From IMG/VR virus record IMGVR_UViG_3300033463_000015: DNA of 64,000 bases; one strand, 5' to 3'. The position numbers and the translations under genes are program-made. The notes beneath the pieces were generated by a model, which had not been told where the DNA came from, did no database searches, and saw nothing but the letters and a program-made list of their open reading frames with translations. The stretch's first letter is position 1, and each line of letters starts with the position of its first letter. This stretch comes from a virus. Taxonomy: Duplodnaviria > Caudoviricetes. Below, in pieces: positions 4,511 through 22,212 of this stretch.

Positions 4511-4515
4511 TTTAT

Positions 4516-4588: not shown

Positions 4589-4593
4589 CTTAT

Positions 4594-5873: not shown

Positions 5874-5944
5874 AGCAGAGAGACGATTTGGTAATCGTGT
5901 GAGGGACGCCCACGTTGCGAGTTCAATTCTCGCCTCTGCTTTCA
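5874..5944 (+). ncRNA. tRNA-like RNA with truncated, non-canonical anticodon arm
   Basis: Acceptor AGCAGAG/CTCTGCT, D arm ACGA/TCGT, T arm GCGAG-TTCAATT-CTCGC; no 7-nt anticodon loop. Confidence 0.65.
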
Positions 5945-5960
5945 GCCATTTTGAGCATAT

Positions 5961-6034
5961 GCCCCGGTAGCTCAGTTGGTCAGAGCACGCGGCTGTTAAC
6001 CGCGGTGTCGTAGGTTCGAATCCTACCCGGGGCG
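5961..6034 (+). tRNA. tRNA-Asn(GTT)
   Basis: CGCGG-CTGTTAA-CCGCG. Confidence 0.9.
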
Positions 6035-6040
6035 CTTCAA

Positions 6041-6351
6041 CCACATAAAGCCTGAATTGACAGGATATGACTGGCCGGTTGAGGTCCGGCGGCAGTAATC
6101 GAATTAGAGAAGTCAATGTAAGTGACCCAATAAAATTACTGCGTCTCGTGAGCGACGACAGCTGTGGTGAGGTTCCGTATTGACCGAAAAGTATAAAATA
6201 ATAACATTGGTTAGGCTGGGCCAAGTAAAATAATTCGCACCGTTAACACGGATTTTGCGGTTAAACTACCACCGGCGCGAAACCCCCGCAGAGATAACTC
6301 TGCAATATGAGTATTCTTGAAACAAGAAGGCGGGTCAGTAGCGATATGTGG
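6041..6351 (+). ncRNA. Unassigned ~310-nt structured RNA
   Basis: Closing stem CCACATA/TATGTGG; internal hairpins GCAGTAAT/ATTACTGC and GCAGAG/CTCTGC. Confidence 0.5.
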
Positions 6352-6420
6352 CACGAAGGAGCGGAAAACGGTATACCCAAAGAAGCGAAGTAAACCGCAT
6401 TTCATTACAGGAGTGATACA

Positions 6421-7362
6421 ATGGGCGTATATACAGCAACTGATTTACGACAAATGTAGTCTTTACCATTAGAGGCTAAAATCGTAAAATCTCAAGAACG
6501 GATCAAAGAATATTATGATTACTTCAATGGTGAAGTATACGTATCATTTTCGGGCGGAAAGGACAGCACAGTTCTTCTTCATTTGGTAAGACAACTTTAT
6601 CCAGAAGTAAGAGCAATGTTTGTCGATACTGGACTTGAATACCCAGAAGTAAAAGAGTTCGTAAAGCAGCACGAAAATGTCAGTATTGTGCGGCCAGCAA
6701 AAACGTATAAGCAAGTTATTGAACGCTTTGGCTATCCAATGATTAGTAAAATGACTGCTAATTGTATCGCTACGGCTCGCCGCGATCCGAATTCAACTCG
6801 CGCAAAATATCTTACTGGAGAAATTCCAACAAAAGCATTTGGCTATGGCAATGGTCGATGGTGGCATATGGTAACAGATGCTCCATTCAACACAAGTGGT
6901 TATTGTTGTGAAGTAATGAAAAAACAACCTGCCCATAAATTCAATCGAGAAACTGGACTAGTTCCAATGATAGCTACATTGGCTGATGAATCAGTCAATC
7001 GGCGGCTGACTTGGTATAAAGAAGGTTGTAATAGTTTCAAAGGTAAGGATTCTCAAAGTAAGCCTTTATCATTCTGGACCGATCAGGATATATATCATTA
7101 TATAAAAGATAATAATATTCCTTATTGTCCTATATATGGTGATATTATAGAAAATGAAAAAGGCGAACTAGTAACAACTGGTGTTGAACGCACAGGTTGT
7201 ATCTTCTGCGGTTTCGGCGCGCATCTTGAAAAAGAACCTAATCGTTTCCAACAGCTAAAAGAAACCCATCCAAAATTGTGGGATTATTGTATGCGGCCAT
7301 TGGAAGAAAATGGATTAGGTATGCGTGAAGTTTGCGAATTTATGAAAATTCCAATTGAGTGA
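6421..7362 (+). CDS. PAPS-reductase family protein; TAG=Gln
   Basis: LRQM[TAG]SLPLEAKI, SFSGGKDS PP-loop, RTGCIFC. Confidence 0.85.
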
Positions 7363-7377
7363 GAAATCACTCTTTGA

Positions 7378-7451
7378 TGGCCCTTAGCTCATCAGGTTAG
7401 AGCAGCAGTCTTATAAACTGCAGGTGCTGGGTTCGACTCCCAGAGGGCCTA
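7378..7451 (+). tRNA. tRNA-Ile(TAT)
   Basis: GCAGT-CTTATAA-ACTGC. Confidence 0.85.
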
Positions 7452-7530
7452 CTATCAAATATTTGAAATATAGCAGTCAAATATTTGACTTTTCTCAAAA
7501 TTGTGCTATAATATATATGTAAACAAGGAA

Positions 7531-8117
7531 AGGAGATATTAGGTTAGTAAATTTTGAACCAAGTGAAGATGTGCTAACCACACAGCTTGGGCTATCCGTA
7601 TAGTAGCTGTCACTGCCCGAAGGATACTTTTGGTTAAACAGCCGCCAAAACAGCAATGTTAGGCGATAAAGGAGAAACTCCAAATACTAAGGATAGGCGC
7701 TTGGGTGTTCGCAATCAAAAGCACTTTTCCTCTCGGCTACATAATAGAAAGCTTGTTGAACAGACGAGCCGAATCCAGATAAGGCATTGGGGTGGTAGCC
7801 AATGCAAACTCTGGAAATACCATAAGTAGCTATCGGCGTTGATGAAAGCCGGAAACGGCATATAAGAGAGGTTTGTGGTGGGAGTAGGCCAAAGCGACGT
7901 ACAAGTAATATTGAATAAAAGAATTATTGAATATTGCTGAATGGTTTGGCTGAAACTTGAAGGTAGTCAATCCTTCCTACACACGGCGAAAGCGGATCGA
8001 AGAAGCTATGGGATCGCTACCTATGGCTCAGCCTTCGGTTCTGTAGTGGCTGAATATGATTGAAGAATTACTCGGGTACGGCGAAGGTCGCAACAGTTTA
8101 CTAACCTAATATCTCCT
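7531..8117 (+). ncRNA. ROOL-like large RNA
   Basis: 587 nt; long terminal stem AGGAGATATTAGGTTAGTAAA/TTTACTAACCTAATATCTCCT; own promoter 7485-7512; internal motifs (GAAGGTAGTCAATCCTT, GGATCGCTACC, GCTCAG, GTGGCTGAATA, GAAGGTCGC) match ROOL as recalled. Confidence 0.75.
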
Positions 8118-8142
8118 CTTTCTTTTTAACTAGGAGGCTTAT

Positions 8143-8604
8143 ATGAGACGAATTACTACAATTGTTCTTACGCTATGTTGCTTGCTAATGCCATTGGCCG
8201 CTCTGGGAGACAGTAGCCGTTCTCCTACATTAGATGCTTTATGGTACGCGGAACCAACACTACAGTTTCAGCTAATTAATAATATGGATGAATATGCTGA
8301 ATATCTAGAACTTATTTCAACCTATTATGACCTTGAGGGCTTCACAGAAATGGTTCTAGGAACAGATAAATTTCATATTGTTGATATGATTATCGTTACT
8401 TTAGACCAGACATATGGACGTGTTGTATGGCATACCCCCTATGGCTTTACAACTACTGATAATATCTGTGTCTTTATGATTTCTACGAATCTTTGGCAGG
8501 GATATGTAATGAATGCCAATGGTGATAGAAATGATAATCTAATTGTAAATTATAGTGAAGTGTCTCCGGGTACTTACTTTATGATTATCTATGCGGCTGA
8601 TTAA
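8143..8604 (+). CDS. Hypothetical secreted protein
   Basis: N-terminal signal-peptide-like segment, RBS. Confidence 0.65.
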   Translation: MRRITTIVLTLCCLLMPLAALGDSSRSPTLDALWYAEPTLQFQLINNMDEYAEYLELISTYYDLEGFTEMVLGTDKFHIVDMIIVTLDQTYGRVVWHTPYGFTTTDNICVFMISTNLWQGYVMNANGDRNDNLIVNYSEVSPGTYFMIIYAAD

Positions 8605-8636
8605 ATCAGTCGCGTTTTTTATTAGGAGTGAAAGAT

Positions 8637-9578
8637 ATGCCATTACCAGTATTATTTGCAGGAACAAGGCCACTTGGCAGAGCAGAAAATATTACCGCAT
8701 TATATGAGGCTTATTAGGGACTGAAAAAATATATTCAAGTTAGCGGAAGTAACGACCATCCAGAAATACGTTCTGGCAATTATAGAGTTTTAATTATTGA
8801 TGACTTTGGCTGTCGCAATCCTGGTAAATGTATTTTACTATGGCACGCTATTTAGGGCGGCAAATATATCGGTCTTAATTAGCCATTCCCTTATACTTCA
8901 TAGCAAAATATAAATAAAATTGATTATATTATTGCCGCAGGTGATGACGCTATTCCAATGTGGTAGCAATGTACTAATTTAGCCGCAGATAAAATTTTGC
9001 CGCTAGGAATGCCACGAACCGATTAGTTTATTGGCAAAACAAAAGGTGATGGGCATACATTATTGGCTAATAAAAAAGCTTATTTATATGCTCCTACTTT
9101 TAGACTTTCTAGTGAGCCATTATTCTTTTAGTTAGATTATGATTGGTTAGATAAACAATTAACTGATGATGAGATATTCGCAGTAAAAGCACATATGGTT
9201 GGAAAGAAAATTTTATCTAAAAAATATAATCATATTGTGGAAATCTCACAAAACGAGCCATCAACTCCATATTTATGTGATTGTGATGTTGTAATAACTG
9301 ATTATAGCAGCATTATATTTGATGGCTATTTACTAAATAAACCTGCTATTTTATTTGAAAAAAGTAGCGGTTATGCCGCTAGCCGTGGAATGTATATGAA
9401 TTATCCTAATGAGTATTGTTCTAAATATGCGACTAATGAATAGGAGTTATTAGATTTATTACGTTCTACTAATGAACTTACAGAAGTAGAAAGAAAATGT
9501 ATTCAACGAGTAGCGAATAAATGCGATGGAAATTCTTGCCAGCGCATTTGTGAACTAATTAAAAAGTTGAATTTTTAA
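8637..9578 (+). CDS. CDP-glycerol glycerophosphotransferase (TagF/TagB-like); TAG=Gln
   Basis: WHA, LGMPRTD, YLYAPTFR and DVVITDYSSIIFD motifs; open except for TAGs. Confidence 0.85.
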
Positions 9579-9678
9579 AATAATTTTACTTGACTTTTCC
9601 CAAAATTATAGTATAATATAATTGTACCAAAGGGAAATGGTGCCGATATAGCTCAGTAGGTAGGTGCGTCTCCTTGGT

Positions 9679-10163
9679 TTGAAAATCTGCTTTATTATGC
9701 TTCTTTTGGGAGGATGATAAAATGGAATTAAATACCAAACAAAAAGGTAATATTACTGAAATGCAATGTGCCGTTGCTTTTATGTAGCAAGGATACAAAG
9801 TTAGCTTTCCATATGGTGAAGATTGTAAATATGATATGATTGTAGATACTGGTAAACATTTATATCGAGTACAATGTAAAACTTCATCTAAATTACCAAA
9901 TTCAGAAGAAGGATTTAAATTTAAAACTAGATCAACTGTAATTACAACTCATGGAGTAAAAACATCTGGATATTCACAAGAAGAAATAGATGTATTTGCT
10001 ACAATGTACGAAGGTCAATGCTATGTAATATCTGTAAAAGATTGTGGCGTAAATGAAAAAATTTTACGTTTCCAATATCCTAAAAATGGTCAGCATAAAG
10101 GCATTACCTTAGCTGTAGATTACAAATTGGAGCAAACTAAAGCATTTGAGTGATTTTTAAACA
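9679..10163 (+). mobile_element. Endonuclease-carrying tRNA insert with no group I core
   Basis: Ends pair (TTGAAAATC/GATTTTTAA, TGCTTT/AAAGCA); only ~43 and ~10 nt flank the ORF. Confidence 0.7.
9722..10153 (+). CDS. PD-(D/E)XK homing endonuclease (I-Ssp6803I-like); TAG=Gln
   Basis: TKQKGNITE...PYGEDCKYDMIVD...RVQCKT motif. Confidence 0.85.
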
Positions 10164-10206
10164 AAGGAGAAGGTCCCCAGTTCAAATCTGGGTATCGGCT
10201 TCATAT

Positions 10207-10279
10207 GGGGCCATAGTGATAATGGTTAGCACTACTGCCTTGCAAGCAGTGAGTCGGGGTTCGATTCCCCGTGGCTCCA
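10207..10279 (+). tRNA. tRNA-Ala(TGC)
   Basis: Cloverleaf, G3:U70. Confidence 0.9.
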
Positions 10280-10283
10280 CTTT

Positions 10284-10357
10284 CGGGATGTAGCACAGTT
10301 GGTTAGTGCAGCGCTCTGATAAGGCGAAGACCGATGGTTCAAGTCCATCCATCCCGA
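10284..10357 (+). tRNA. tRNA-Ile(GAT)
   Basis: CTGATAA loop. Confidence 0.85.
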
Positions 10358-10363
10358 TTTTAT

Positions 10364-10439
10364 GCGAGGTTAGCTCAGTTGGGAGAGCATCACGTTTACA
10401 CCGTGAGGGTCGGCGGTTCGAGCCCGTCACTTCGCACCA
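10364..10439 (+). tRNA. tRNA-Val(TAC)
   Basis: TTTACAC loop, CCA. Confidence 0.9.
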
Positions 10440-10630
10440 GGCCAATGTAGCTACCGATAAGGAACTATGTCGAAAGAAAAGGCTCCGGAGATGTTCAGTA
10501 GGTTGAGCTCCAGAAATCAAACCTGCAGCCACAATAACCGTTGCTACGCGGGAAAATTGGACGCCCTTTAAAGTTGTTCGCGGTAGTGTGAATAACCTTC
10601 GCCACGGCGAAGTAAAATAGCCGTGGAAAT

Positions 10631-10705
10631 GCGCCATTAGTCTAAGGGATAGAACGAGTGGCTACGGACCACTAGATACGCGTTCGAGTCGTGTATGGCG
10701 TGCCA
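10631..10705 (+). tRNA. tRNA-Arg(ACG)
   Basis: CTACGGA loop, CCA. Confidence 0.9.
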
Positions 10706-10708
10706 TAT

Positions 10709-11061
10709 GGGGTAGTTTTGGTTTCGACAGGTTATGAATGGTATTGAAATCACGGGTAGGCGGCGCACCTTACGCAGCAAACAATTGAACTGACAACGAT
10801 TATTTCTATAGCGAACTAAAGGCTGCTTAATTGCAGTTTCGCGCCTAAACAACAAACCTGCTAATCGGTAAATGTTTGCGGTTCAGAGATAGATTAGTAG
10901 ATTGGCTTCGGGCCAGCTGGTCTTCTCTATTCACAGTCCAACGAATAGAGTGGTGGAAGGATCATTCCCAGTTTGTCAGAACTTAAAACTGACTATCGTG
11001 TAAGTAATTTTCAATATTGGTTGTAGCTTGGACAGGGGTTCAACTCCCCTCTACTCCACCA
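10709..11061 (+). ncRNA. ssrA: tmRNA; tag (A)DNDYFYSELKAA*
   Basis: GGGGTAG...GGTTTCGAC 5' end, T arm and CTACTCC-ACCA 3' end with G3:U; tag ORF 10792-10830 ends in AA. Confidence 0.92.
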
Positions 11062-11064
11062 TAT

Positions 11065-11150
11065 GCGTCGGTGTGTCCAGTGGCGAAGGCAGCGGACTGT
11101 AAATCCGTTACAAAGAAACATCGGTGGTTCGACTCCACCCCGGCGCACCA
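11065..11150 (+). tRNA. tRNA-Tyr(GTA)
   Basis: CTGTAAA loop, long variable arm, CCA. Confidence 0.9.
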
Positions 11151-11153
11151 TAT

Positions 11154-11226
11154 GCTCTGATAGCTCAGTTGGTAGAGCAGTAGACTGAAAATCTACGTGT
11201 GGGTAGTTCAATTCTACCTCAGAGCA
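11154..11226 (+). tRNA. tRNA-Phe(GAA)
   Basis: GTAGA-CTGAAAA-TCTAC. Confidence 0.9.
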
Positions 11227-11234
11227 TTATATAA

Positions 11235-11305
11235 GTTCCATTGGCCTATCGGTGGGGCACGACACTTTTAATGTCGGGAGACAGGTTCAACTCCTGTATG
11301 GGACA
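11235..11305 (+). tRNA. tRNA-Lys(TTT)
   Basis: CGACA-CTTTTAA-TGTCG. Confidence 0.85.
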
Positions 11306-11389
11306 CTTGAGGTAGCGTTGGAGTAATTAACCAACGAGATAATGCGCTCTCCCGCAAGCTCATATAAATTATCAGGAGAGTGATAATAT

Positions 11390-11818
11390 ATGGAGAATAC
11401 TAAAACAAAAGGACAAATTTCTGAAGCAAGAGTTTTATATGAATTTTAGAAGTATCATATACCAGTTTGTCTTCCTTGGGGAGATAATGAACGTTATGAT
11501 ATGGTTGCTGAATTTGATGGTAAATTTAATCGTATTCAAATAAAAACAGCTAATTAGGAAGAAAACGGTGCTGTATGCTGTTGGGCAAGAAGCTCAACAA
11601 ATCACACAACTAATAAAAAATTATCATCATATGAAAATGATGTTGATTACTTTGTCTTTGTTAATCAAACAAGGGACTGGCTAGCACTTGTGCCTATTGA
11701 AGAATTAAATGGGCAGAAAAGCATACGATTACGAATTAATCCACCATTAAATACTAATGGTAAAACTATAAGGTATTTTTCTGACTTCACATTTGATAAA
11801 AAATTTAATTCTCATTAA
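11390..11818 (+). CDS. Free-standing PD-(D/E)XK homing endonuclease; TAG=Gln (absent from ORF track)
   Basis: MENTKTKGQISE...PWGDNERYDMVAE...RIQIKT; paralogous to 9722-10153. Confidence 0.85.
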
Positions 11819-11837
11819 AATAAAAAGGAGAAAAAAT

Positions 11838-12005
11838 ATGCCAAAGGTAGGAGACAAAGTTCGTATTCTTTTTATGAGTGGTGAATCTCAGTATACTGGT
11901 CGTGTAGGTATCGTCAAATTCATTGATGATATGGGTTATATCCACGGAACTTGGGGCGGTTGTGCGCTAATTCCGGGAGAAGATGAATGGGAGATTATTG
12001 AATAA
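11838..12005 (+). CDS. Small protein (DUF4314-like)
   Basis: KVGDKVRI...G.V.FIDD.G.IH..W pattern. Confidence 0.6.
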   Translation: MPKVGDKVRILFMSGESQYTGRVGIVKFIDDMGYIHGTWGGCALIPGEDEWEIIE

Positions 12006-12016
12006 TCTCCCTATAT

Positions 12017-12090
12017 AGGGGTATCGTTCAACGGTAGGACTACTGACTCCAAATCAGCCAATCTGTGTTCAAATCGCAGTACCCCTGCCA
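12017..12090 (+). tRNA. tRNA-Trp(CCA)
   Basis: CTCCAAA loop, CCA. Confidence 0.9.
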
Positions 12091-12093
12091 TAT

Positions 12094-12168
12094 GCATATG
12101 ATGCTCGTCGGCCGGGTGGCGGCCTGCAAAGCCGCTGTTAGTAGGTTCAACTCCTACCATATGCTCCA
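12094..12168 (+). tRNA. tRNA-Cys(GCA)
   Basis: GCGGC-CTGCAAA-GCCGC, U73. Confidence 0.85.
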
Positions 12169-12267
12169 GATGGAGCCATTACGCTCAAGAGTTAGTATCA
12201 GCTGCTACGGCTCAAAGAGTAAAACAGATATTGCAAATAATGATGGTAAAGGCACTCCTCACCATAT

Positions 12268-12339
12268 GCCCCATTAGCTCAACGGACAGAGCCCGCGCCT
12301 TCTAAGCGCGTCATATATGTTCGACTCATATATGGGGTA
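12268..12339 (+). tRNA. tRNA-Arg(TCT)
   Basis: CGCGC-CTTCTAA-GCGCG. Confidence 0.9.
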
Positions 12340-12382
12340 CTAAGCCGCAAGGCTAAAAATAAAATAAAAGAGGTAAAAATAT

Positions 12383-12922
12383 ATGGCAGATACAAGACTA
12401 AAGATTCTACCACCTTGGACTATTGCTATTAGAAAGCTAGAAGCTCTATTTGATGGAGACCCACAGATTGCTTTTAATTGCGATTTCTCTGGTTCCCATC
12501 CAACTGTAGTTCTATCCTGTAATAATGGCGATAAGGTTACAGCACTACTTCAGATTCTTCCAGAAGAAATTAACTTTGGCAATGTTAGCCTAAAGGTTGT
12601 TGTTGATGGCACGCCAAGCAATCGTGCTTTCACCAGCAAGGTCGAGCTATTTGATGTAGCTTTCAAGGGCAATCCTTCTTATGCTTATTCCGTATGCCCT
12701 GTTGAGGAAGGCTATCAGTGGTTTGACACTACTTATGTAGTATTTAACAACTGTGTAGTACAGTTCGCGGCTGACAATCTAAACGATTGCCACGGCGTTA
12801 TCAGCACACTATATGAAACCATTGCTGATGAACTTCTAACTGGCCCCGCAACCGCTGGTGTATACTATAACACTAATGTTGAACGCGCCAATCTTGGCAT
12901 GCCTCTTGGCGAGTGGCCATAA
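12383..12922 (+). CDS. Hypothetical protein
   Basis: 179-aa ORF with RBS. Confidence 0.7.
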   Translation: MADTRLKILPPWTIAIRKLEALFDGDPQIAFNCDFSGSHPTVVLSCNNGDKVTALLQILPEEINFGNVSLKVVVDGTPSNRAFTSKVELFDVAFKGNPSYAYSVCPVEEGYQWFDTTYVVFNNCVVQFAADNLNDCHGVISTLYETIADELLTGPATAGVYYNTNVERANLGMPLGEWP

Positions 12923-12929
12923 TCCTTAA

Positions 12930-13056
12930 AATGCGGTGGCGGAATAGGTAGACGTCGTAGTTCCAAATCACAGGCTGAGTCGTAAAGGGACGAATAAAAC
13001 TGGCGAGCGAGAGCTGCCTGATCTCGTATGCGAGGTGCAAATCCTCGCCCGCATTA
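12930..13056 (+). ncRNA. tRNA-like RNA with an expanded domain replacing the anticodon arm
   Basis: Acceptor AATGCGG/CCGCATT, Leu-type D arm, GCGAGG-TGCAAAT-CCTCGC; ~75-nt branched central domain. Confidence 0.6.
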
Positions 13057-13057
13057 T

Positions 13058-13130
13058 GCCGAATTAGCTCAATTGGCTAGAGCCACCGCCTTGTAAGCGG
13101 TAGATACGGGTCCGAGTCCCGAATTCGGCT
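13058..13130 (+). tRNA. tRNA-Thr(TGT)
   Basis: ACCGC-CTTGTAA-GCGGT. Confidence 0.88.
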
Positions 13131-13151
13131 TTCAATTTTAGGAGGCATAAT

Positions 13152-13649
13152 ATGTTTGATATTGAAGAAAATAAGCGTCTCTGCGACACATATCCCTTCC
13201 TTATTCCCTTCAATCGCTTCAGCGGCAAGCGTATTAACTGTGGCGAAAAAGGTTACTGGCCCGGTAATCCTGATGAGTATCCGCCAGAATGGAACTATGA
13301 ATATACAGAACTTGATGATATGCCAGATGGATGGCGTGATGCTTTTGGTGAACAATTGTGCTTTGAAATTAAACAAGCTTTGCTTGATGAAGGTGGCGAA
13401 AAGCTTCTTGATGAGTATCGCGTTGACCAAATTAAAGAAAAATATGGCACTTTAAGATGGTATGATAATTTTAGCACCAAACGCATTCAAGATATTCTTG
13501 AAAAATATGAAAATTTAAGTGCTCGCACTTGTATTAAATGCGGCAAGCCTGCTACTAAATTAAGCCGCGGGTGGATTGCCCCTTGGTGTGATGAATGCGG
13601 CAATGATGAAGATGAAGCGTATATGAGTTTAGACAATGCTTTTATTTGA
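13152..13649 (+). CDS. Conserved phage hypothetical protein with C-terminal Zn ribbon
   Basis: QIKEKYGTLRWY...TCIKCG...WCDEC. Confidence 0.75.
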   Translation: MFDIEENKRLCDTYPFLIPFNRFSGKRINCGEKGYWPGNPDEYPPEWNYEYTELDDMPDGWRDAFGEQLCFEIKQALLDEGGEKLLDEYRVDQIKEKYGTLRWYDNFSTKRIQDILEKYENLSARTCIKCGKPATKLSRGWIAPWCDECGNDEDEAYMSLDNAFI

Positions 13650-13789
13650 CTTTTGATAAAAAATTTGATATAATATATATAGAAAGTAGGAAATCAGCGA
13701 GTTCTCCCACGAATAAAGTTAGCGCTGTAAAGGGTGGGAACGGTAGGCAGATAGAAGTTGTGAGGTCGCTGATAGGCAACAGATGAAAT

Positions 13790-14052
13790 AGCCCCGTAGT
13801 TGAATGGTACAACACCGGTCTCTAGCCTTAATTGGAGCCTTATATGGAGACGTATAAGTGAAAATGCCGCTAATTCGGTGAAAGCTTAACTGCTAACCCC
13901 GAGCAAGGAGAAATCCGTGTGTAGAGACTTTACACGGCACATCTAGAACAGATGAAGATAAAGTCCGGACCACGATGTGAAAACAATGTGGTGAAGAAAA
14001 CCGTAATATCCCTCTGACGGAGGTTGTCTGGGTTCGAATCCCAGCGGGGCCG
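13790..14052 (+). tRNA. Amber suppressor tRNA(CUA), intron-containing
   Basis: Exons 13790-13823 and 13997-14052 give CCGGT-CTCTAAA-ACCG; long variable arm. Confidence 0.85.
13824..13996 (+). mobile_element. Compact group I intron (173 nt)
   Basis: U.G pair at 5' splice site (CTCT/GGAG), P3 TGCCG/CGGCA, P4 TTCGG/CCGAG, P7 GACTTTA/TAAAGTC, terminal G. Confidence 0.88.
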
Positions 14053-14054
14053 TC

Positions 14055-14203
14055 GCGACACTGTAGGCTTAGAAGTAGCCATCAGCTAAAGAGTTTATAT
14101 GCCTCCATTCGTGCGAAATGTATTATGGGCTACAAAAATTGTCCTATAAGTATGATGTGCGGTGGACAAAAGGTAAAATAATTTGGTGTAATAACACAGT
14201 CGC
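14055..14203 (+). ncRNA. 23S rRNA H43/H44 (uL11-binding) mimic RNA
   Basis: TGTAGGCTTAGAAGTAGCCATCAGCTAAAGAGT...GTGTAATAAC closed by GCGAC/GTCGC. Confidence 0.7.
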
Positions 14204-14233
14204 ATTTTAGAAGCGTGAAAACGCTTCTTGTAT

Positions 14234-14367
14234 CTGGGTGTAGCGCAGTTTGGTAGCGCATCAGATTTGAAAATCTAGCATAACGGTAATGCTTTATATC
14301 AGAGTTCGATTCTCTGGATTTTCACGGGATCTGAGGGTCGTGAGTTCAAATCTCACCACCCAGACCA
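14234..14367 (+). tRNA. tRNA-Pro (TGG or CGG) with a 57-nt tRNA-like insert in the anticodon loop
   Basis: CTGGGTG/CACCCAG-ACCA, TCAGA/TCTGA anticodon stem; insert ~14269-14325. Confidence 0.85.
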
Positions 14368-14535
14368 ACAGGATGGCATGAAACCTGTCACAATCTGCAT
14401 AGCTGAGTGTAGATAAAAACATGCCTATCAGCATTTAGCGCCGTTGGGAACCTTATGGTGGAAGAGCCCTACAAGAAAGAGGCCGAGTAGTATCCGCAAC
14501 TCTTCCGGCGCATTTTTTTATTAAAAGGAGAAAAT

Positions 14536-14946
14536 ATGATAGCAAATATTTGTGAGCATTGCCAACACTTTTTAGAAGATCAAGCAGAATATCATTATTG
14601 CCATGTATGTAATATGGATCATAGTTGTTTTTTACTAAAAAACAAAGAAAAAGTTTTTTATCGTGTAATTACATTTTGTAATTTACCAAAAGAAGATGAC
14701 AATTTTCCACCAGACTATGACACACCAGCTTATTATGAAAATAAAGATGATGCTATTCAATGTGTAAAAGAAAATTGCTGTGATATTTATGAGGGTAGCT
14801 ATCCAGCCGCAATGGTAATTGAAACTGGATTTGGATGCTATCCATATTGCCCCAATCGTTGGTACTTTGAATGGGAAGGCGATTGGAGAACTGGTAAGTA
14901 TGTGCAAAAAGAAGAACCTAAATCATTGGAGCATTGGGGACTATGA
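14536..14946 (+). CDS. Cys-rich hypothetical protein
   Basis: ORF with RBS. Confidence 0.65.
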   Translation: MIANICEHCQHFLEDQAEYHYCHVCNMDHSCFLLKNKEKVFYRVITFCNLPKEDDNFPPDYDTPAYYENKDDAIQCVKENCCDIYEGSYPAAMVIETGFGCYPYCPNRWYFEWEGDWRTGKYVQKEEPKSLEHWGL

Positions 14947-14958
14947 AAGGAGATAATT

Positions 14959-15321
14959 ATGGGATACTATACTAGTTATAATCTTGATGTAAAAGGCGTT
15001 GAAAATAAAGAAAGATTTGAAGAATTGCAAAATGCACTAAAACAAATTGGCGTTATATACTATGCTTTAGATAGTGGTGAATATTTAGAGAAAATTAAAC
15101 TTGCTTCATTTTATACTTATGATTCTGCAAAATGGTATGAATATAATGATGATATGAAAAATCTTTCACTTATTTTTCCTAAATTTCTTTTCTGTCTCGA
15201 AGGAGTGGGAGAAGATTGGGATGATAGATGGCGTGCATATTATCATTATGGAGAAAGTGAATTTTGCCCTGCTCAAATTATATTTAAAGAACCAGAACGA
15301 ATTAAATGGAGCGAAGAATGA
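14959..15321 (+). CDS. Phage hypothetical protein
   Basis: MGYYT...KWYE...LEGVGED, RBS. Confidence 0.7.
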   Translation: MGYYTSYNLDVKGVENKERFEELQNALKQIGVIYYALDSGEYLEKIKLASFYTYDSAKWYEYNDDMKNLSLIFPKFLFCLEGVGEDWDDRWRAYYHYGESEFCPAQIIFKEPERIKWSEE

Positions 15322-15761
15322 AAATTTACACTTCTTATTGGGCTATGGTACGTCATTTTCCTACCAATCTTATTGGTTTAAATACTACAATTTGGCCTCC
15401 TAAATGGCGGCCACTAGGTAAAGACGCAAGAGGTGTCATTGTTATAGACTGCCCGCCCCTTAAACCCGGAGCCGCGTGTGAAGGTTTATGTAATGGAAAA
15501 TGTAGCCCTAAACATCCACAAGATTGTGAGTTTCTAAATGTATATCAGCGGCAACTAGATGAAATTGATTTTAATCAATTTATGAACTCATTACAAAAAT
15601 TACACGATAAGATTTGTGCTGAAGAAGGATTTGAGGATGTAGATTTTGCTCTCATTGTATATGAGACACCGCAGAATCATTGTAGCGAGCGTTTGCCACT
15701 ATGGATATGGCTTCAAATGAATGGTATTGAACCTCAGGAATTTAACAAAAGTAGTATTTGA
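15318..15761 (+). CDS. Hypothetical protein (DUF488-like)
   Basis: MKIYTSYW...YETP..HCSER. Confidence 0.55.
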   Translation: MKIYTSYWAMVRHFPTNLIGLNTTIWPPKWRPLGKDARGVIVIDCPPLKPGAACEGLCNGKCSPKHPQDCEFLNVYQRQLDEIDFNQFMNSLQKLHDKICAEEGFEDVDFALIVYETPQNHCSERLPLWIWLQMNGIEPQEFNKSSI

Positions 15762-15815
15762 CAATTATAAAAATTATGATATAATATAATTGAACAAAAG
15801 GAAAGGAGCATTTAT

Positions 15816-16399
15816 ATGAAGCCTAGGGTAATCAAGAATCGCATCGAGTTTAATCTGTATCCTGATGAGGATAGCTATCAGCAGGCTGTAAGTCTTGGTT
15901 TTGATGTAGATCAGGATATGCCGCTTGAAGCGCTTCATCGTATGTGCCGTTATTTTGCGCTATGTCTAGGTTTTGCAGAATCTAGCGTAGATGAGATGTT
16001 CGGTGAAGAAAGTTATAATGACCTCTGTTGATATTGACCGACTCTTTAAAGATTTAATTAATTATTGGGGTACAGCTCCATTTGGATTTGTACTCGCGGC
16101 AATCGCAGACGCAGAACAAGCGTGGGAAGAAGAAAACTACGATCGCATTGTAGAATGGGCAGTACAAGAAGGATTTAATTTGGAGGATTATTATGTTTAA
16201 GTATAAGGTTCATTACTGGGATGAAGTTGAAAATAAGAATCTTGATGATACTGGTCTTGTCGCCGCAAAGTCTTGGGGCAAAGCAGTCGAAAAGGTTCGG
16301 GAATATTATGGGCCTAAGAATGTATATAGTATTACCGTTGAGGAATGGGATGAAGTTGTATATGCTGAAGAGGTTCTTAATGGACTAACTGAAGAGTAA
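15816..16399 (+). CDS. Three small acidic hypothetical ORFs (15816-16031, ~16018-16200, 16193-16399)
   Basis: Overlapping ORFs after promoter 15758-15785. Confidence 0.6.
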
Positions 16400-16419
16400 T
16401 CGCGGCGAAAGCCGCATAT

Positions 16420-16705
16420 GCGGGTATGGCGGAATAGGCAGACGCCACAGACTTTAATAAAAAGAGCACTAGAATAGGAAACTTTCTGAGTGAATGCTGG
16501 CTAATTCGGTGAAAGTCCTTATGGGATAACGCCGAGCTAAATGGTTTAAAACCTAAATGTGTAGAGACTATATACCAGCCACCTAAATCATAAGATATGG
16601 TGAAGACATAGTCCAGACTACAACGTGTAAGCGGCCATAGTAATATGGAGTAGTAGGAAAATCTGTTGCCCTCTGGGCGTGCCGGTTCAAGTCCGGCTAC
16701 CCGTA
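16420..16705 (+). tRNA. tRNA-Leu(TAA), intron-containing
   Basis: Exons 16420-16454 and 16658-16705 give ACAGA-CTTAAAA-TCTGT. Confidence 0.9.
16455..16657 (+). mobile_element. Group I intron (203 nt)
   Basis: AATTCGGTGAAA, GTAGAGACTAT and ATAGTCC core; inserted after U34 as in cyanobacterial tRNA-Leu(UAA) introns. Confidence 0.9.
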
Positions 16706-16756
16706 CTTATAATCAAAACACCTCCCTTTCTCTACGCGGCGGAAACGCCGCATTAT

Positions 16757-16844
16757 GCCCTCGTGCCGCAGCTAGTGAGACGGGGTAGTCTCAAAAACTA
16801 CTACACAAGAAACATCGTGGGCGCACATCCCACCGAGGGTACCA
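16757..16844 (+). tRNA. tRNA-Leu(CAA), atypical T loop
   Basis: GTAGT-CTCAAAA-ACTAC, T loop CGCACAT, CCA. Confidence 0.75.
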
Positions 16845-16918
16845 GTGGCTTTTAGAACAAAAGAGGTTAGCCTGCGCAAGAACCCATATGTCGTTGCGGT
16901 GACGTGAAGCCGCACCAC

Positions 16919-16989
16919 GCACCATTAGTGTAATGGCAACATTCCTGCCTTCCAAGCAGTAGTTGGCGGTTCAAATCCGCTATGGTGCT
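16919..16989 (+). tRNA. tRNA-Gly(TCC)
   Basis: CTTCCAA loop. Confidence 0.88.
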
Positions 16990-16990
16990 T

Positions 16991-17250
16991 TGGGGAGGAG
17001 TTAAAAGCGTCCTCTCTCTGGTGCAATGCGGTAATACCTGTATACGGGTCCCAAAAGTTACCCTACCAGTAGTTAGAAGTCTGTAAAACTTCCATTGGGC
17101 TGGCTGAGAGGCCCGGGTCCACCTTGTAGGTTTCGCTTGACCGCAGGGGATGTATTCCCGAAACAAGCATTTAATATTATAAGCTGCCGACGCCTCTGCT
17201 GACGAGCAAGCGTACCACGGGGCAATGGGCTCGTTAATAACCTCCTCAAA
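16991..17250 (+). ncRNA. Unassigned ~260-nt structured RNA
   Basis: Closing stem TGGGGAGG/CCTCCTCA, GC-rich internal hairpins. Confidence 0.5.
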
Positions 17251-17366
17251 ACCGAGGAAGTAGGTACCTTGAGCCCTTCATTAATCAATAGGAGTCTTGA
17301 GCGGTTATTAGACTTAATACTCAACCGACCGATCGTACGCGGCAAAACAAATCCTATTGACGTTAT

Positions 17367-17453
17367 GCAGATGTGGCTGAGTGGTCTAAAGCAGCGGTTT
17401 GCTAAACCGTCGTACTTTCATCGGTACCGAAGGTTCAAATCCTTCCATCTGCG
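17367..17453 (+). tRNA. tRNA-Ser(GCT)
   Basis: TTGCTAA loop, long variable arm. Confidence 0.9.
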
Positions 17454-17471
17454 CTTTAAGGAGATGATTCT

Positions 17472-17735
17472 ATGGAAAATAAAGAAAATACTTCGATGTT
17501 AGAGGGATGGCGTTGCCCTTAGTGTGGAGCAGTAATGTCTCCATTTGTACGTAGCTGTGTAAATTGTGTTGGTAAATCTTCGCCTACAGTTGTTCAACCA
17601 AATACGACTACTCCATTAACTGAGCCATATCCATCTACAACTACACCTATATATGAAGAAGTTCCTTGGTGGATAACATACAATAGACCAATTACTATTA
17701 CTTGTGAAACAAAACCAGTTCAATGCTGGTTGTAA
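17472..17735 (+). CDS. Small Zn-ribbon protein; TAG=Gln
   Basis: GWRCP[TAG]CGAVMSP...CVNC. Confidence 0.7.
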
Positions 17736-17741
17736 AGGAGA

Positions 17742-17984
17742 ATGATTATGGATAGATTACGTATTCGTATTTTAAGCCAGAATGATGTAGTCTCGCTAGT
17801 AAATAGTCTAAATACTTGGACTGATAAGTTTATTCTTGAAAGTGAAGATGGCACTTATAGAGTAAATGCCAAGAGCGTTCTTGGTGTTCTTTACTTTGTG
17901 TCTGAACACCCAATGGATACTTATCTTATAAATATGACTAGCGGCGGCTACTACCCTGATGGTGCTATGCGTTTTCGCTTTTGA
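17742..17984 (+). CDS. HPr-like protein
   Basis: RVNAKSVLGV (Ser46 region); no His15 equivalent. Confidence 0.7.
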   Translation: MIMDRLRIRILSQNDVVSLVNSLNTWTDKFILESEDGTYRVNAKSVLGVLYFVSEHPMDTYLINMTSGGYYPDGAMRFRF

Positions 17985-17997
17985 AAGCGCAATTTAA

Positions 17998-18069
17998 TGA
18001 GGATTCGTATAACGGCGAGTACACACGGCTTTGACCCGGGTAGCGATGGTTCGATTCCATCATCCTCAG
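17998..18069 (+). tRNA. tRNA-Gln(TTG)
   Basis: CTTTGAC loop, U1:A72. Confidence 0.88.
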
Positions 18070-18074
18070 CTTAT

Positions 18075-18163
18075 GGGCATGTGGCCGAGTGGTTTAAGGC
18101 GGCGGTCTTGAAAACCGTTGATGTGATGAACATCCGTGGGTTCAAATCCTACCGTGCCCGTCA
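18075..18163 (+). tRNA. tRNA-Ser(TGA)
   Basis: CTTGAAA loop, long variable arm. Confidence 0.9.
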
Positions 18164-18475: not shown

Positions 18476-18961
18476 ATGCCTACATTGTATATTATGTGCG
18501 GTATTCCGGGGTCTGGTAAAACTTATTTTGCACGGAATTTTCTTCGTGCAGATGTAACAGTATCTCGTGATAATATTCGTTTCATGATGCTGGATGATAA
18601 TGAACAGTATTTTGACCATGAGGCTGAAGTATTTAACGAATTTGTAAAAACTCTTGTGCATCATCTTCATCATTTTGAAACAGTGGTAGCGGATGCGACT
18701 CATCTCAACATCTGGTCACGTAAAAAGCTTACAAATGCTATTGACAAATATATTACGGATTATCGCATCGTATATGTGGTATGCGCTCCTTCACTACAGG
18801 TATGCCTCTATCGTAACAGCAAGCGCACTGGCCGTTCTCGAGTACCAGACGAAATCGTAAAAGAAATGGCCGACAAATTTCATCCGCCCGTAACTGACGC
18901 TTATAAATTGGAAGATGAGCGAGCAGTAGGAGTTTGGTGGATTAATGGCGAACCAAAATGA
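18476..18961 (+). CDS. Polynucleotide-kinase-like P-loop protein (AAA_33)
   Basis: CGIPGSGKT, SRDNIR, VADATHL. Confidence 0.85.
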   Translation: MPTLYIMCGIPGSGKTYFARNFLRADVTVSRDNIRFMMLDDNEQYFDHEAEVFNEFVKTLVHHLHHFETVVADATHLNIWSRKKLTNAIDKYITDYRIVYVVCAPSLQVCLYRNSKRTGRSRVPDEIVKEMADKFHPPVTDAYKLEDERAVGVWWINGEPK

Positions 18962-19572
18962 ATAACATTTGGTTTACAAGCGATACACATTTCTTTCACG
19001 AGCAATCATTCATTTACGAACCTCGCGGTTTTACTACCACTATGGAAATGAATGAAGCGATAGTAGAACGATGGAACGAGGTAGTCCAAGAAGAAGATAC
19101 TGTCTATCATCTCGGCGATGTATTAATGGGACATTATGATGTTAATATCCTAAAAAGACTAAACGGTAATATATTTTTAATTCGCGGCAATCACGATACA
19201 TTGCAGAAAATTAGCGACATCTACGAAACTGGCAAGGTAACTAATATTATACACACTAGCGAACTTTTAAAGTTCGGCAAACTAAATTTCTTTTGTTGCC
19301 ATTATCCAGTTCTTACTGCTAATTTTGATGATAAGCATTTTTCGCAGCATATTATTTCCCTACATGGTCATTCACATCAAACTTCTAACTGGCTATTTCC
19401 TGAAAACCCATTTATTTATCATGTTGGACTTGATTCGCACGATTGTAAGCCTGTTCATCTAGACGAAATTACTACGGATATACGAAATAGATGGAATCAA
19501 TTAGGCTAGCTTCCAATCATGTTAAATAAAGATTATCATAAAAATTTCACCTCCGAAGAAAGTCAAGATTAA
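18958..19572 (+). CDS. Calcineurin-like metallophosphoesterase; TAG read through to TAA 19572
   Basis: SDTH, HLGD, RGNHD, LHGHSH. Confidence 0.85.
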
Positions 19573-20991: not shown

Positions 20992-22212
20992 ATGTTAAAT
21001 TCAAAACAGGAACGCGAATTAGCTTATGTAGGAATTATTGATGGTATTGAACCCATCCTCGGATATGACCGTGTTGAACACGCTATTGTTGGCGGCTGGC
21101 GTGTTATTGTTCAGAAGGGTCAATTTAATGTAGGTGATCCGGCTATCTACTTTGAAATTGATTCCCGCGTGCCTTCTGATAAAGAATGCTTTGCTTTCCT
21201 TGAGAAGCGGCATTATAAGGTAAAAACGCTGAAGATGTGTAAGACTCTTTCACAAGGTTTGCTTATGCACGCCGAAGATTTTGGTTGGCACATAGGACTA
21301 AATTGTGGAGTGATGATGATTTATGATGGAGAAGAATGGCATAATCCTCTTGATGAATCCCGCTTCCTGACTAAACAACTTGGCGTAACTTACGCCGATG
21401 AAGAAGACAATCAGCGTAAGGCTCCTACTGTAGATAAGTATAAGAAAATGGCCGCTCGTCATCCCGAAATTTTCAAGAAATCTTGGGCTAAGTGGATGAT
21501 GAAACATAATTTTGGCCGCAAAGTGATGTTTTTCTTCTTTGGTAAAAAGAAAGATAAGAAGAATGGTTGGCCTTCTTGGGTTCAAAAGACCGATGAAGAG
21601 CGAGTGCAAAATATGCCTTGGATTCTAAATGATGATGGTGATTGGATTGCCACTGAGAAGATTGATGGAACTAGCACTACTTTCTCTATGAAGCGTGGTA
21701 AATTTAGACATAAATCTTTCTATGTCTGTTCCCGCAATGTATGCTTTGGAGAAGAAAGTAAAGAATGCTATTATGATACCAATGTATACTGGGAAATGGC
21801 TAAGCAATATGATATGTTCAAGGTACTATCTAATTTGTTGGCCGCTTATCCTAATGAAGAATGGATTACCATTCAAGGTGAAACTTTTGGTGATGGTATC
21901 CAGCGGCGAGATTACTCTCTCTGCGGTGAACACGATTTTCTAGCATTTAATCTAATTTTCTCATCTCGCGGTCGTGTAGGAACTCTTGAAATGATTGATA
22001 TTCTCGATCCATATGGAATTGAATGCGTGCCTGTGCTTAATTGTAAGATGAAAATTAATCAATTTGAAAATGTAGATGCTATTCTTACTTATGCAGAAGG
22101 TAAATCTTGTCTGGATAATTTACCTCGCGAAGGTATCGTATTCCGTTCTACTGATGGCTCTAAATCTTTTAAAGCTGTAAGTAATAGTTTTCTTCTAAAG
22201 TATCACTCTTAA
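20992..22212 (+). CDS. ATP-dependent RNA ligase (DRB0094/Rnl2-like, N-terminal OB domain)
   Basis: YFEIDS N-terminal module; motifs TEKIDG, SRN, QGE, EGIV, FKAVS. Confidence 0.88.
   Translation: MLNSKQERELAYVGIIDGIEPILGYDRVEHAIVGGWRVIVQKGQFNVGDPAIYFEIDSRVPSDKECFAFLEKRHYKVKTLKMCKTLSQGLLMHAEDFGWHIGLNCGVMMIYDGEEWHNPLDESRFLTKQLGVTYADEEDNQRKAPTVDKYKKMAARHPEIFKKSWAKWMMKHNFGRKVMFFFFGKKKDKKNGWPSWVQKTDEERVQNMPWILNDDGDWIATEKIDGTSTTFSMKRGKFRHKSFYVCSRNVCFGEESKECYYDTNVYWEMAKQYDMFKVLSNLLAAYPNEEWITIQGETFGDGIQRRDYSLCGEHDFLAFNLIFSSRGRVGTLEMIDILDPYGIECVPVLNCKMKINQFENVDAILTYAEGKSCLDNLPREGIVFRSTDGSKSFKAVSNSFLLKYHS

What the first reader, a model, noticed from the sequence alone, without database searches (positions are those of the whole stretch)
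14268..14326. A tRNA inside a tRNA: anticodon-less mini-tRNA nested in the tRNA-Pro anticodon loop
Seen: the 57-nt insert folds as acceptor GAAAATC/GATTTTC + A, TA linker, D arm GCAT-AACGGTA-ATGC, a 7-nt linker instead of an anticodon arm, and T arm CAGAG-TTCGATT-CTCTG. Established: RNase P and RNase Z recognise the acceptor/T-arm elbow, not the anticodon, and leave 3'-OH and 5'-P ends, which ATP-dependent RNA ligases join. Inference: host tRNA-maturation nucleases act as the splicing endonuclease. Cut register matters: removing 14269-14325 gives TGG, removing 14268-14324 gives CGG, and strictly canonical P+Z cuts would leave an 8-nt loop.
Basis: partly seen in the sequence, partly recalled or inferred. 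Interest (0 to 1): 0.88.

Follow-up and report, generated by a model that had tools for sequence, protein, structure and literature searches.

The report
tRNA-shaped intron in phage tRNA-Pro
The only proline tRNA gene of this rumen-type phage is split in its anticodon by a 57-base insert folded like a small tRNA. It belongs to a recurring, unexplained kind of phage tRNA intron whose ends suggest, without proving, that ordinary tRNA-trimming enzymes cut it out and a phage RNA ligase reseals the tRNA.

Summary
Window 14269-14325 lies inside the anticodon loop of tRNA-Pro (14234-14367). On its own it scores 42.5 bits (E 1e-8) on Rfam's tRNA model, with only the anticodon arm missing.

Removing it restores TTTGGGA (UGG), the loop of the closest intron-less tRNA-Pro in a related phage. 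A second phage carries the same insert. All its changes lie in inner loops, and its outer T stem has a compensatory change.

In related phage tRNA arrays I found about 19 further short, non-group-I anticodon-loop inserts. Each starts at base +1 of a 7-bp acceptor-like stem stacked on a 5-bp T-like hairpin. In 8 of 13 independent contexts the insert ends N-CCA exactly at the splice site fixed by homology (P about 3e-12). This supports cutting by RNase P and an RNase Z-like enzyme. The phage encodes an NgrRnl-like ATP-dependent RNA ligase 6.6 kb downstream.

Nothing was shown at the RNA level. This insert has no CCA: its 3' boundary falls one base after the canonical RNase Z site. It also shares its ends with a ribozyme-less intron that carries an endonuclease gene and has no T arm.

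Such introns were reported, unexplained, in Lak megaphages (Devoto 2019). This scan has found them before on other DNA.

The parts
14234..14268 (+). 5' exon of tRNA-Pro(UGG): acceptor CTGGGTG, D arm, anticodon stem TCAGA, loop nt U32 U33 U34
   Evidence: Rfam tRNA 57.2 bits over 14234-14364. The spliced form is 90.7% identical over 75 nt to the intron-less tRNA-Pro(TGG) at L058:263.
14269..14325 (+). 57-nt tRNA-shaped intron. Acceptor 14269-75/14317-23, U8A9 14276-77, D arm 14278-92, linker 14293-99 in place of the anticodon arm and variable loop, T arm 14300-16, discriminator A 14324, C 14325.
   Evidence: Rfam tRNA 42.5 bits on the insert alone; MFE folds; shuffle test; same insert in L003/L029 with changes in loops only.
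14326..14367 (+). 3' exon of tRNA-Pro: loop GGGA, anticodon stem TCTGA, variable loop GGGTC, T arm GTGAG-TTCAAAT-CTCAC, acceptor CACCCAG, A73, encoded CCA 14365-67
   Evidence: The outer T stem shows a compensatory A-T to G-C change in the second intron-bearing phage.
9679..10163 (+). Sister intron in tRNA-Thr(GGT) (gene 9642-10200): 485 nt, almost all of it a PDDEXK_5 homing-endonuclease ORF (9722-10153, one in-frame TAG). It has no ribozyme and no T arm. It shares TTTGAAAATCT, GCTTTAT and GATTTTY with the Pro insert.
   Evidence: Sequence; Pfam PF11645 E 1.1e-27; no group I signal at E<=10; the 11-mer occurs 3 times in the window against 0.16 expected.
20992..22212 (+). ATP-dependent RNA ligase, NgrRnl/Rnl5-like (N-terminal OB domain plus nucleotidyltransferase): candidate sealing enzyme
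   Evidence: PF09414 (3.2e-21) plus PF21189 (3.7e-20); PDB 5cot Naegleria RNA ligase E 1.5e-28; phrog_968 RNA ligase.
18476..19509 (+). Polynucleotide-kinase-like P-loop protein (18476-18961) and metallophosphoesterase (18958-19509): end-healing pair next to the tRNA array
   Evidence: PF13671 2.6e-20, phrog_505 polynucleotide kinase; PF00149, phrog_547 phosphoesterase.

Best explanation
The 57-nt insert is a real intervening sequence of the phage's only tRNA-Pro gene. It belongs to the tRNA-shaped, ribozyme-less introns found in tRNA arrays of large phages. Most likely mechanism, all steps inferred: the inner acceptor/T-arm minihelix with its D/T elbow is recognised by the host's tRNA end-processing nucleases. 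RNase P cuts at 14268|14269 and leaves the 5' exon with a 3'-OH. An RNase Z-type activity cuts at 14325|14326 and leaves the 3' exon with a 5'-phosphate. The outer cloverleaf holds the two exon ends together. The phage's NgrRnl-like ATP-dependent RNA ligase joins them to give the loop UUUGGGA (anticodon UGG). The released product is a 57-nt anticodon-less mini-tRNA ending A-C.
For: 1) The tRNA shape is well beyond chance.
2) Removal restores the loop of the closest intron-less allele, L058:263, which is 90.7% identical and reads TTTGGGA. Another relative, L009:1639, is also intron-less.
3) This is the only tRNA-Pro in the 101-kb record. The gene stays under structural constraint: there is a compensatory change in the outer T stem between the two intron-bearing phages.
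4) All 19 analysed short inserts in related phages (two are this Pro insert) start at +1 of a 7-bp stem stacked on a 5-bp/7-nt-loop hairpin, in a register allowed by homology to intron-less tRNAs. Eight of 13 independent contexts end N-CCA at the 3' splice site, P about 3e-12.
5) In the two homologous Thr introns (L030, L115) the inner acceptor and T stems show compensatory changes. The GGCAGCA-loop family keeps both stems with unrelated sequences.
6) RNase Z enzymes are reported to cut just after an encoded CCA and to accept pre-tRNAs lacking the D, T or anticodon arm (PMC7479834).
7) Thirteen of 20 tRNAs in the array are CCA-less and mostly followed by T, so they should already depend on host RNase Z.
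8) An ATP-dependent ligase of the 3'-OH/5'-P type lies 6.6 kb downstream.
9) No group I, other ribozyme or BHB feature is present.
Against: There are no RNA data. Canonical RNase Z would cut after A14324 and give an 8-nt loop. The UGG product needs a cut after C14325. The same N74 boundary holds in the Asn intron of L101, whose register is fixed by homology. The three homologous Asn introns have tails of 1, 2 and 4 nt, which a simple P/Z ruler does not predict. The window's Thr intron shares the Pro insert's ends but has no T arm or elbow. If both are spliced alike, the tRNA shape is not what is recognised. The ligase also occurs in many relatives in which no insert was seen in the fetched DNA, so it is permissive, not diagnostic. 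It may serve repair of anticodon-nuclease damage. The phage record shows no RNase Z, CCA-adding enzyme or EndA. An earlier scan check of a related claim, protein joining of an endonuclease-type insert, gave it low odds (e1-144097).
Confidence: 0.42

Rival explanations
1. It is a spliced intron, but other nucleases cut it. One option is an RNase III-type staggered cut of the long coaxial helix formed by the outer anticodon stem and the inner acceptor stem. Another is an unidentified phage or host endonuclease that leaves 2',3'-cyclic-P and 5'-OH ends. Those ends would be healed by the adjacent kinase and phosphoesterase and then sealed by the ligase. In this reading the tRNA shape serves the released RNA (a decoy, a regulator or a CCA-addition substrate) rather than splicing.
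For: The UGG register leaves exactly a 2-nt 3' overhang on the intron hairpin (G14269 pairs with C14323; A14324 and C14325 overhang). The same holds for the CCA-less Gln (L058) and Asn (L101) introns. The MFE fold stacks the two helices. The endonuclease-bearing Thr intron has the same ends but no tRNA body. A kinase and phosphoesterase pair sits beside the ligase. A free-standing stem-plus-ACCA unit at 16845-16917 suggests that such RNAs have a role of their own.
Against: RNase III cannot explain the 4-nt NCCA tails of 8 contexts. The exon side of the helix is interrupted by a 3-nt bulge. No candidate nuclease was identified: the neighbouring ORFs have no family and no EndA is present.
Confidence: 0.25
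2. It is not removed. The gene is a tRNA-Pro inactivated by a mobile tRNA-like insertion, for example a mature minihelix RNA ligated into a broken anticodon loop and copied back into DNA, or a derivative of an endonuclease cassette. The phage relies on host tRNA-Pro.
For: No RNA evidence for splicing was obtained. Only two genomes carry it in 2.9 million viral and 241 million metagenome records. They differ too little to show long-term selection. Boundaries at mature tRNA ends could reflect the way it was inserted rather than its removal.
Against: Both exons are intact and yield a canonical 7-nt loop. The outer T stem shows a compensatory change. It is the only tRNA-Pro in the record. The same design persists in at least 13 tRNA contexts, with exon and intron helices kept by compensatory changes, for example L030 against L115.
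Confidence: 0.15
3. The insert is a small self-cleaving or self-splicing RNA of an undescribed class.
For: It is a conserved, structured insert at a site where phage introns are normally ribozymes. Two bona fide group I introns sit in neighbouring tRNAs.
Against: It has 57 nt. Every conserved feature is accounted for by the tRNA fold. Only tRNA matched among 4227 Rfam families at E<=10. The only unpaired stretch is the linker TTTATAT.
Confidence: 0.03

Closest known systems
'Enigmatic' tRNA introns of Lak megaphages (Devoto et al. 2019, Nat Microbiol, PMC6784885); also noted in jumbo phages (PMC13037316)
   Same: A short insert in the anticodon loop of a phage tRNA. Alleles exist with and without it. 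The insert is itself predicted as a tRNA, and no ribozyme family matches. The phages use an alternative genetic code (TAG recoded).
   Different: Those papers describe the inserts only and propose no mechanism. This one lies in a phage clade whose complete records run about 180 kb (rumen origin is my inference). It lacks both the anticodon arm and a CCA end, and it shares its termini with an endonuclease-bearing intron. Sequence homology to the Lak introns was not tested.
Group I introns in bacterial and phage tRNA anticodon loops (Rfam RF00028)
   Same: Same location, optional presence, and association with homing endonucleases. Two such introns are in this very array (13812-13990 and 16445-16630).
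   Different: There is no ribozyme core, the insert is only 57 nt, it has no guanosine-binding architecture, and its terminal nucleotides do not fit the U / omega-G rule. It cannot self-splice by that route.
Archaeal and eukaryal protein-spliced tRNA introns (bulge-helix-bulge motif, EndA/TSEN, RtcB or Trl1)
   Same: The intron is removed by proteins, sits at variable positions in the anticodon loop, and needs an RNA ligase.
   Different: There is no BHB motif: one 3-nt bulge only, and the splice sites are not in symmetric bulges. No EndA family hit was found in the phage. The ligase is of the ATP-dependent 3'-OH/5'-P type.
tRNA-like processing signals cut by RNase P and RNase Z (MALAT1 mascRNA, plant mitochondrial t-elements, mitochondrial tRNA punctuation; from my own knowledge)
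   Same: A tRNA-like fold without decoding function is used, or usable, as a cleavage signal by tRNA end-maturation enzymes.
   Different: In those cases the flanks are not re-joined. Here the flanks must be ligated to make a functional tRNA.
Phage T4 Pnkp/Rnl1 repair of anticodon loops cut by PrrC (from my own knowledge)
   Same: Phage-encoded kinase/phosphatase plus RNA ligase acting on a broken tRNA anticodon loop.
   Different: T4 repairs damage and removes no sequence. The ligase here is NgrRnl-like (Rnl5), not Rnl1.

Membership tests
Lak-type tRNA-shaped phage tRNA introns | Insert lies inside the anticodon loop of a phage-encoded tRNA, and its removal restores a canonical 7-nt loop | tested here: met
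   removal gives TTTGGGA; the outer tRNA scores 57.2 bits.
Lak-type tRNA-shaped phage tRNA introns | The insert itself is predicted as a tRNA or tRNA-like RNA | tested here: met
   RF00005 42.5 bits, E 1.1e-8, anticodon arm deleted.
Lak-type tRNA-shaped phage tRNA introns | Optional: related phages carry the same tRNA without the insert | tested here: met
   Intron-less tRNA-Pro(TGG) at L058:263 (90.7% identical) and at L009:1639.
Lak-type tRNA-shaped phage tRNA introns | Sequence homology to the published Lak introns | not tested
Group I intron (RF00028) | Conserved catalytic core detectable by the covariance model | tested here: not met
   No RF00028 hit at E<=10 on 13900-14700 or on the insert. 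The neighbouring true introns were detected.
Group I intron (RF00028) | 5' exon ends in U and the intron ends in G | tested here: not met
   In register 14269-14325 the intron ends in C. In register 14270-14326 it ends in G, but the 5' exon then ends in G.
BHB (archaeal-type) intron | Two 3-nt bulges separated by a 4-bp helix, carrying the splice sites | tested here: not met
   The MFE fold has a single 3-nt bulge on the 3' strand, and the 5' splice site lies inside a continuous helix.
BHB (archaeal-type) intron | Splicing endonuclease EndA available | tested here: not met
   PF01974 is absent from the 101-kb record, which is 57% complete. The host is unknown.
Canonical tRNA (for the insert) | Acceptor stem, D arm with GG, T arm with a TTCRA loop and a G53-C61 pair | tested here: met
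Canonical tRNA (for the insert) | Anticodon arm, and a 3' CCA either encoded or addable after N73 | tested here: not met
   A 7-nt linker replaces the anticodon arm. The tail is A-C followed by exon GGGA.
RNase P / RNase Z substrate | 12-bp coaxial acceptor plus T stem with a T-loop/D-loop elbow | tested here: met
   12/12 pairs. G18G19 and TTCGA are present.
RNase P / RNase Z substrate | Actual cleavage at 14268|14269 and 14325|14326 | not testable with these tools
In vitro mapping is needed.
Rnl5 / NgrRnl-like RNA ligase (ORF 20992-22212) | N-terminal OB domain plus RNA_ligase nucleotidyltransferase domain | tested here: met
   PF21189 plus PF09414; PDB 5cot E 1.5e-28.
Rnl5 / NgrRnl-like RNA ligase (ORF 20992-22212) | Seals 3'-OH/5'-P ends in an anticodon loop | not testable with these tools
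   A biochemical assay is required.

The most novel reading that the evidence does not exclude
Large phages carry a protein-dependent tRNA splicing pathway not demonstrated in any system. The intron is itself a miniature tRNA. Host RNase P and an RNase Z-type enzyme therefore act as the 5' and 3' splicing endonucleases, and a phage Rnl5-type ligase acts as the splicing ligase. Each splicing event releases a minihelix RNA that is CCA-ended or can be completed to CCA. The endonuclease-bearing, ribozyme-less introns that share the same closing stem would be cargo-swapped members of the same system.
Probability: 0.35. Interest if true: 0.88.

Novelty: new variant of a known kind. Interest (0 to 1): 0.66.

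Why it matters
Bacteria and their viruses are known to remove tRNA introns only by self-splicing ribozymes. If a tRNA-shaped intron is removed by RNase P, RNase Z and an RNA ligase, that would be a third way of splicing tRNAs, built entirely from housekeeping enzymes. It would explain the 'enigmatic' introns reported in Lak and jumbo phages. It would also make maturation of phage tRNAs, including amber suppressors in TAG-recoded phages, depend on a phage ligase, which could act as a timing switch. This locus is a compact test case: a 134-nt precursor, one candidate ligase gene, and a clear read-out (UGG, CGG or an 8-nt loop).

Tried and rejected
- **Group I intron or other ribozyme:** no Rfam family except tRNA matched at E<=10.
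- **BHB motif:** absent.
- **ARAGORN's reading as tRNA-Phe(GAA) with a 55-nt intron:** rejected. It needs a shifted anticodon stem, and the exons are 91% identical to a tRNA-Pro(TGG).
- **CGG register (removing 14268-14324, blunt 8-bp stem):** less likely. The closest intron-less allele reads TGG (94 against 86 bits). The analogous Asn intron of L101 is fixed by homology to the register with a 2-nt tail, not the blunt one.
- **More homologues of this insert:** three pattern scans found only IMGVR_UViG_3300021255_001748 (viral contigs; metagenome contigs). All other hits were chance matches. Megablast against GenBank phages found nothing.
- **Neighbour-protein search (14536-14943):** found no relatives.
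- **The inner T arm as a copy of another window tRNA:** no match within 3 mismatches.
- **Third copy of TTTGAAAATCT at 34872:** it lies in coding sequence and is a chance match.
- **Families in the phage record:** RtcB, Rnl1, CCA-adding enzyme, MBL-type RNase Z and EndA were not found.
- **G010:** only a sub-threshold RNA_ligase match.
- **MAFFT alignment of the GGCAGCA-loop introns:** not in structural register at the 5' end. I relied on the per-sequence pairing table instead.

Full report
**What is there.** The window is part of a 101-kb IMG/VR virus record, estimated 57% complete. Positions 2257-18162 hold a one-strand array of more than 20 tRNA genes. The array also contains a ROOL RNA, a tmRNA and two group I introns.

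At 14234-14367, Rfam's tRNA model finds a complete tRNA (57.2 bits) with a 59-nt insertion in the anticodon loop. The exons read as follows:
- acceptor CTGGGTG/CACCCAG
- D arm GCGC-AGTTTGGTA-GCGC
- anticodon stem TCAGA/TCTGA
- variable loop GGGTC
- T arm GTGAG-TTCAAAT-CTCAC
- A73 and an encoded CCA

Between the stem halves lie TTT, the insert, and GGGA.

Each is recovered by minimum-free-energy folding of the insert alone and of the whole precursor.

The insert alone (14269-14324) aligns end to end with Rfam tRNA at 42.5 bits (gathering score 29, E 1.1e-8). Only the 18 anticodon-arm positions are deleted. The alignment includes U8-A9, a 4-bp D stem, a GG-containing D loop, G53-C61 and a TTCGA T loop.

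A perfect 7-bp stem stacked on a 5-bp/7-nt-loop hairpin arose in 12 of 200,000 shuffles. The inner T arm is not a copy of any other tRNA in the window.

**Which register.** I spliced all eight possible registers and compared each with 568 distinct intron-less tRNAs collected from related phages.
- The best match is an intron-less tRNA-Pro(TGG) at L058:263. It is 90.7% identical over 75 nt and has the loop TTTGGGA.
- Registers 14269-14325 and 14270-14326 both give this loop (94 bits). The CGG register gives 86 bits.
- A second relative (L009:1639) also has an intron-less tRNA-Pro(TGG) with the same acceptor and D stems.
- ARAGORN's reading as tRNA-Phe(GAA) needs a shifted stem, and I reject it.
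- No other tRNA-Pro exists in the whole record.

**Homologues.** Pattern scans of 2.9 million viral contigs and of the metagenome collection found the same insert in only one other phage, IMGVR_UViG_3300021255_001748.

Its insert differs at three positions. All three lie in the inner D and T loops (AACGGTA to AATGGTA; TTCGATT to TTCAACT), and they keep the GG and TTCRA motifs. The outer T stem carries a compensatory A-T to G-C change.

This fits constraint on both RNAs.

**Context in the window.**
- tRNA-Thr(GGT), 9642-10200, is split after position 36 by a 485-nt insert. The insert is almost entirely a PDDEXK_5 (I-Ssp6803I-type) endonuclease ORF with one in-frame TAG. It has no group I signal at E<=10.
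- Its ends share TTTGAAAATCT, GCTTTAT and GATTTTY with the Pro insert. The 11-mer occurs 3 times against 0.16 expected, and the third copy is a chance coding match.
- Just past the array lie a polynucleotide-kinase-like gene, a metallophosphoesterase and a 406-aa RNA ligase. The ligase has PF21189 plus PF09414 and matches Naegleria NgrRnl (PDB 5cot) at E 1.5e-28.
- The record shows no RtcB, Rnl1, CCA-adding enzyme, MBL-type RNase Z or EndA.
- Thirteen of the 20 array tRNAs lack an encoded CCA and are mostly followed by T. From my own knowledge this is the usual signature of RNase Z substrates in Firmicutes.

**The class.** I used the ligase to collect about 70 related phage contigs and fetched their tRNA arrays. 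Intron-aware ARAGORN plus hand parsing then found many short inserts in anticodon loops that are not group I introns.

For each insert I fixed the splice register by homology of the spliced product to intron-less tRNAs, independently of the intron's own sequence. In all 19 sequences analysed, an allowed register puts the intron's first base at +1 of a 7-bp stem (5-7 pairs) that stacks directly on a 5-bp stem with a 7-nt loop.

Inserts whose tail is N-CCA exactly at the 3' splice site:
- Thr(TGT) in L030 and L115
- Ile(GAT) in L032
- Leu(TAA) in L033, L111 and L106
- Val(TAC) in L103
- Ile(TAT) in L104
- Trp(CCA) in L107
- a CTA suppressor in L119
- a Gln(TTG) in L113, whose intron is a full cloverleaf-like RNA

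Counting independent contexts, 8 of 13 end in CCA (P about 3e-12 from base composition).

The two Thr introns differ by compensatory changes in both the inner acceptor stem (CTGAGT/ACTCAG against TCAAGT/ACTTGG) and the inner T stem (GTGAG/CTCAC against GTAAG/CTTAC). A family with the loop GGCAGCA keeps both stems with unrelated sequences.

The inner minihelix is therefore under selection in this class.

**What does not fit.** The Pro insert belongs to a CCA-less minority.
- Tails are AC (Pro), AT (Gln, L058/L108) and AA (Asn, L101).
- The register of the L101 Asn case is fixed by 92% identity to an intron-less tRNA-Asn. It shows that the 3' boundary is after N74, not after the discriminator, and that the blunt 8-bp register is wrong there.
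- In all three, the exon base at -1 is U and can pair with A73, so N74 is the first unpaired base. That might shift an RNase Z-type cut by one.
- The same geometry equals an RNase III-like 2-nt 3' overhang.
- Three homologous Asn introns have tails of 1, 2 and 4 nt.
- The endonuclease-bearing introns (window Thr; L033, L034 Thr; L032 Lys and Pro) have a closing stem, a 3-nt tail and no T arm.

A single simple rule therefore does not cover all of them.

**Mechanism.** The 5' boundary at +1 and the CCA 3' boundary are what RNase P and RNase Z would produce. Published work reports that archaeal RNase Z enzymes and B. subtilis RNase Z cut just after an encoded CCA, and cites the same for Thermotoga. 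It also reports that the archaeal enzymes process pre-tRNAs lacking the D, T or anticodon arm and prefer a matured 5' end (PMC7479834).

From established knowledge, both enzymes leave 3'-OH and 5'-P ends. Those are the substrates of an ATP-dependent ligase such as the NgrRnl-like enzyme encoded here.

I therefore rank [quoted passage not shown] first, at about 0.4. Next comes excision by other nucleases, with healing and sealing by the kinase, phosphoesterase and ligase set. After that comes a non-spliced dead gene. An unknown ribozyme is last.

**What is known.** Devoto et al. [quoted passage not shown] They called them enigmatic (PMC6784885). A 2026 jumbo-phage survey repeats the observation (PMC13037316). 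I found no paper proposing or testing a mechanism.

This scan has met the same design several times on other DNA, and the follow-up reports reached similar readings. One later check of a related claim, for an endonuclease-type insert, gave protein joining low odds.

**Verdict.** The structure is real and far beyond chance. It is a new variant of a kind already reported but unexplained: it has no anticodon arm, no CCA, and termini shared with an endonuclease-bearing intron.

Noticed in passing
window 9642-10200: tRNA-Thr(GGT) is split after position 36 by a 485-nt insert that is almost entirely a PDDEXK_5 homing-endonuclease ORF with an in-frame TAG. It has no group I signal. Its ends match those of the Pro mini-tRNA. 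Similar ribozyme-less endonuclease inserts occur at L033:11161-11724, L034:13897-14446, L032:5118-5672 (Pro) and L032:6528-7091 (Lys).
   Followed up: partly
window 13789-14054 and 16420-16706: Two tRNAs carry true group I introns. One is an amber-suppressor-type tRNA(CTA), intron 13812-13990, 40.7 bits. The other is tRNA-Leu(TAA), intron 16445-16630, 65.5 bits. In relatives the CTA tRNA is intron-less (L003:974-1064) or carries a tRNA-shaped intron instead (L119).
   Followed up: partly
window 7535-8110 and 10709-11061: A ROOL RNA (332 bits) and a tmRNA (95 bits) are embedded in the phage tRNA array.
   Followed up: no
window 16845-16917: A free-standing 73-nt unit closed by a 7-bp stem (GTGGCTT/AAGCCGC) and ending ACCA lies between two tRNAs. 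It looks like an un-nested relative of the minihelix introns.
   Followed up: no
window 14061-14103: A weak match to bacterial 23S rRNA positions 1098-1143 (10.5 bits, E 0.6) lies in the spacer before tRNA-Pro.
   Followed up: no
L111:2949-3082 (-) and L115:8435-8563: tRNA-Tyr(GTA) genes carry 49- and 47-nt inserts at the 31/32 junction (register ambiguous over a repeated TGGA). The inserts have no CCA end and no obvious minihelix. This may be a different kind of insert.
   Followed up: no
L113:128-284: tRNA-Gln(TTG) has an 83-nt intron that looks like a full cloverleaf: acceptor, D arm, an anticodon-like arm and a T arm, ending TCCA. It is the most complete 'tRNA inside a tRNA' seen here.
   Followed up: partly
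L107:13515-13661 and L119:14370-14521 (-): Homologous 75-77-nt CCA-ended introns sit in a tRNA-Trp(CCA) and in a related tRNA with anticodon CTA. This suggests a suppressor derived from tRNA-Trp that kept the intron.
   Followed up: no
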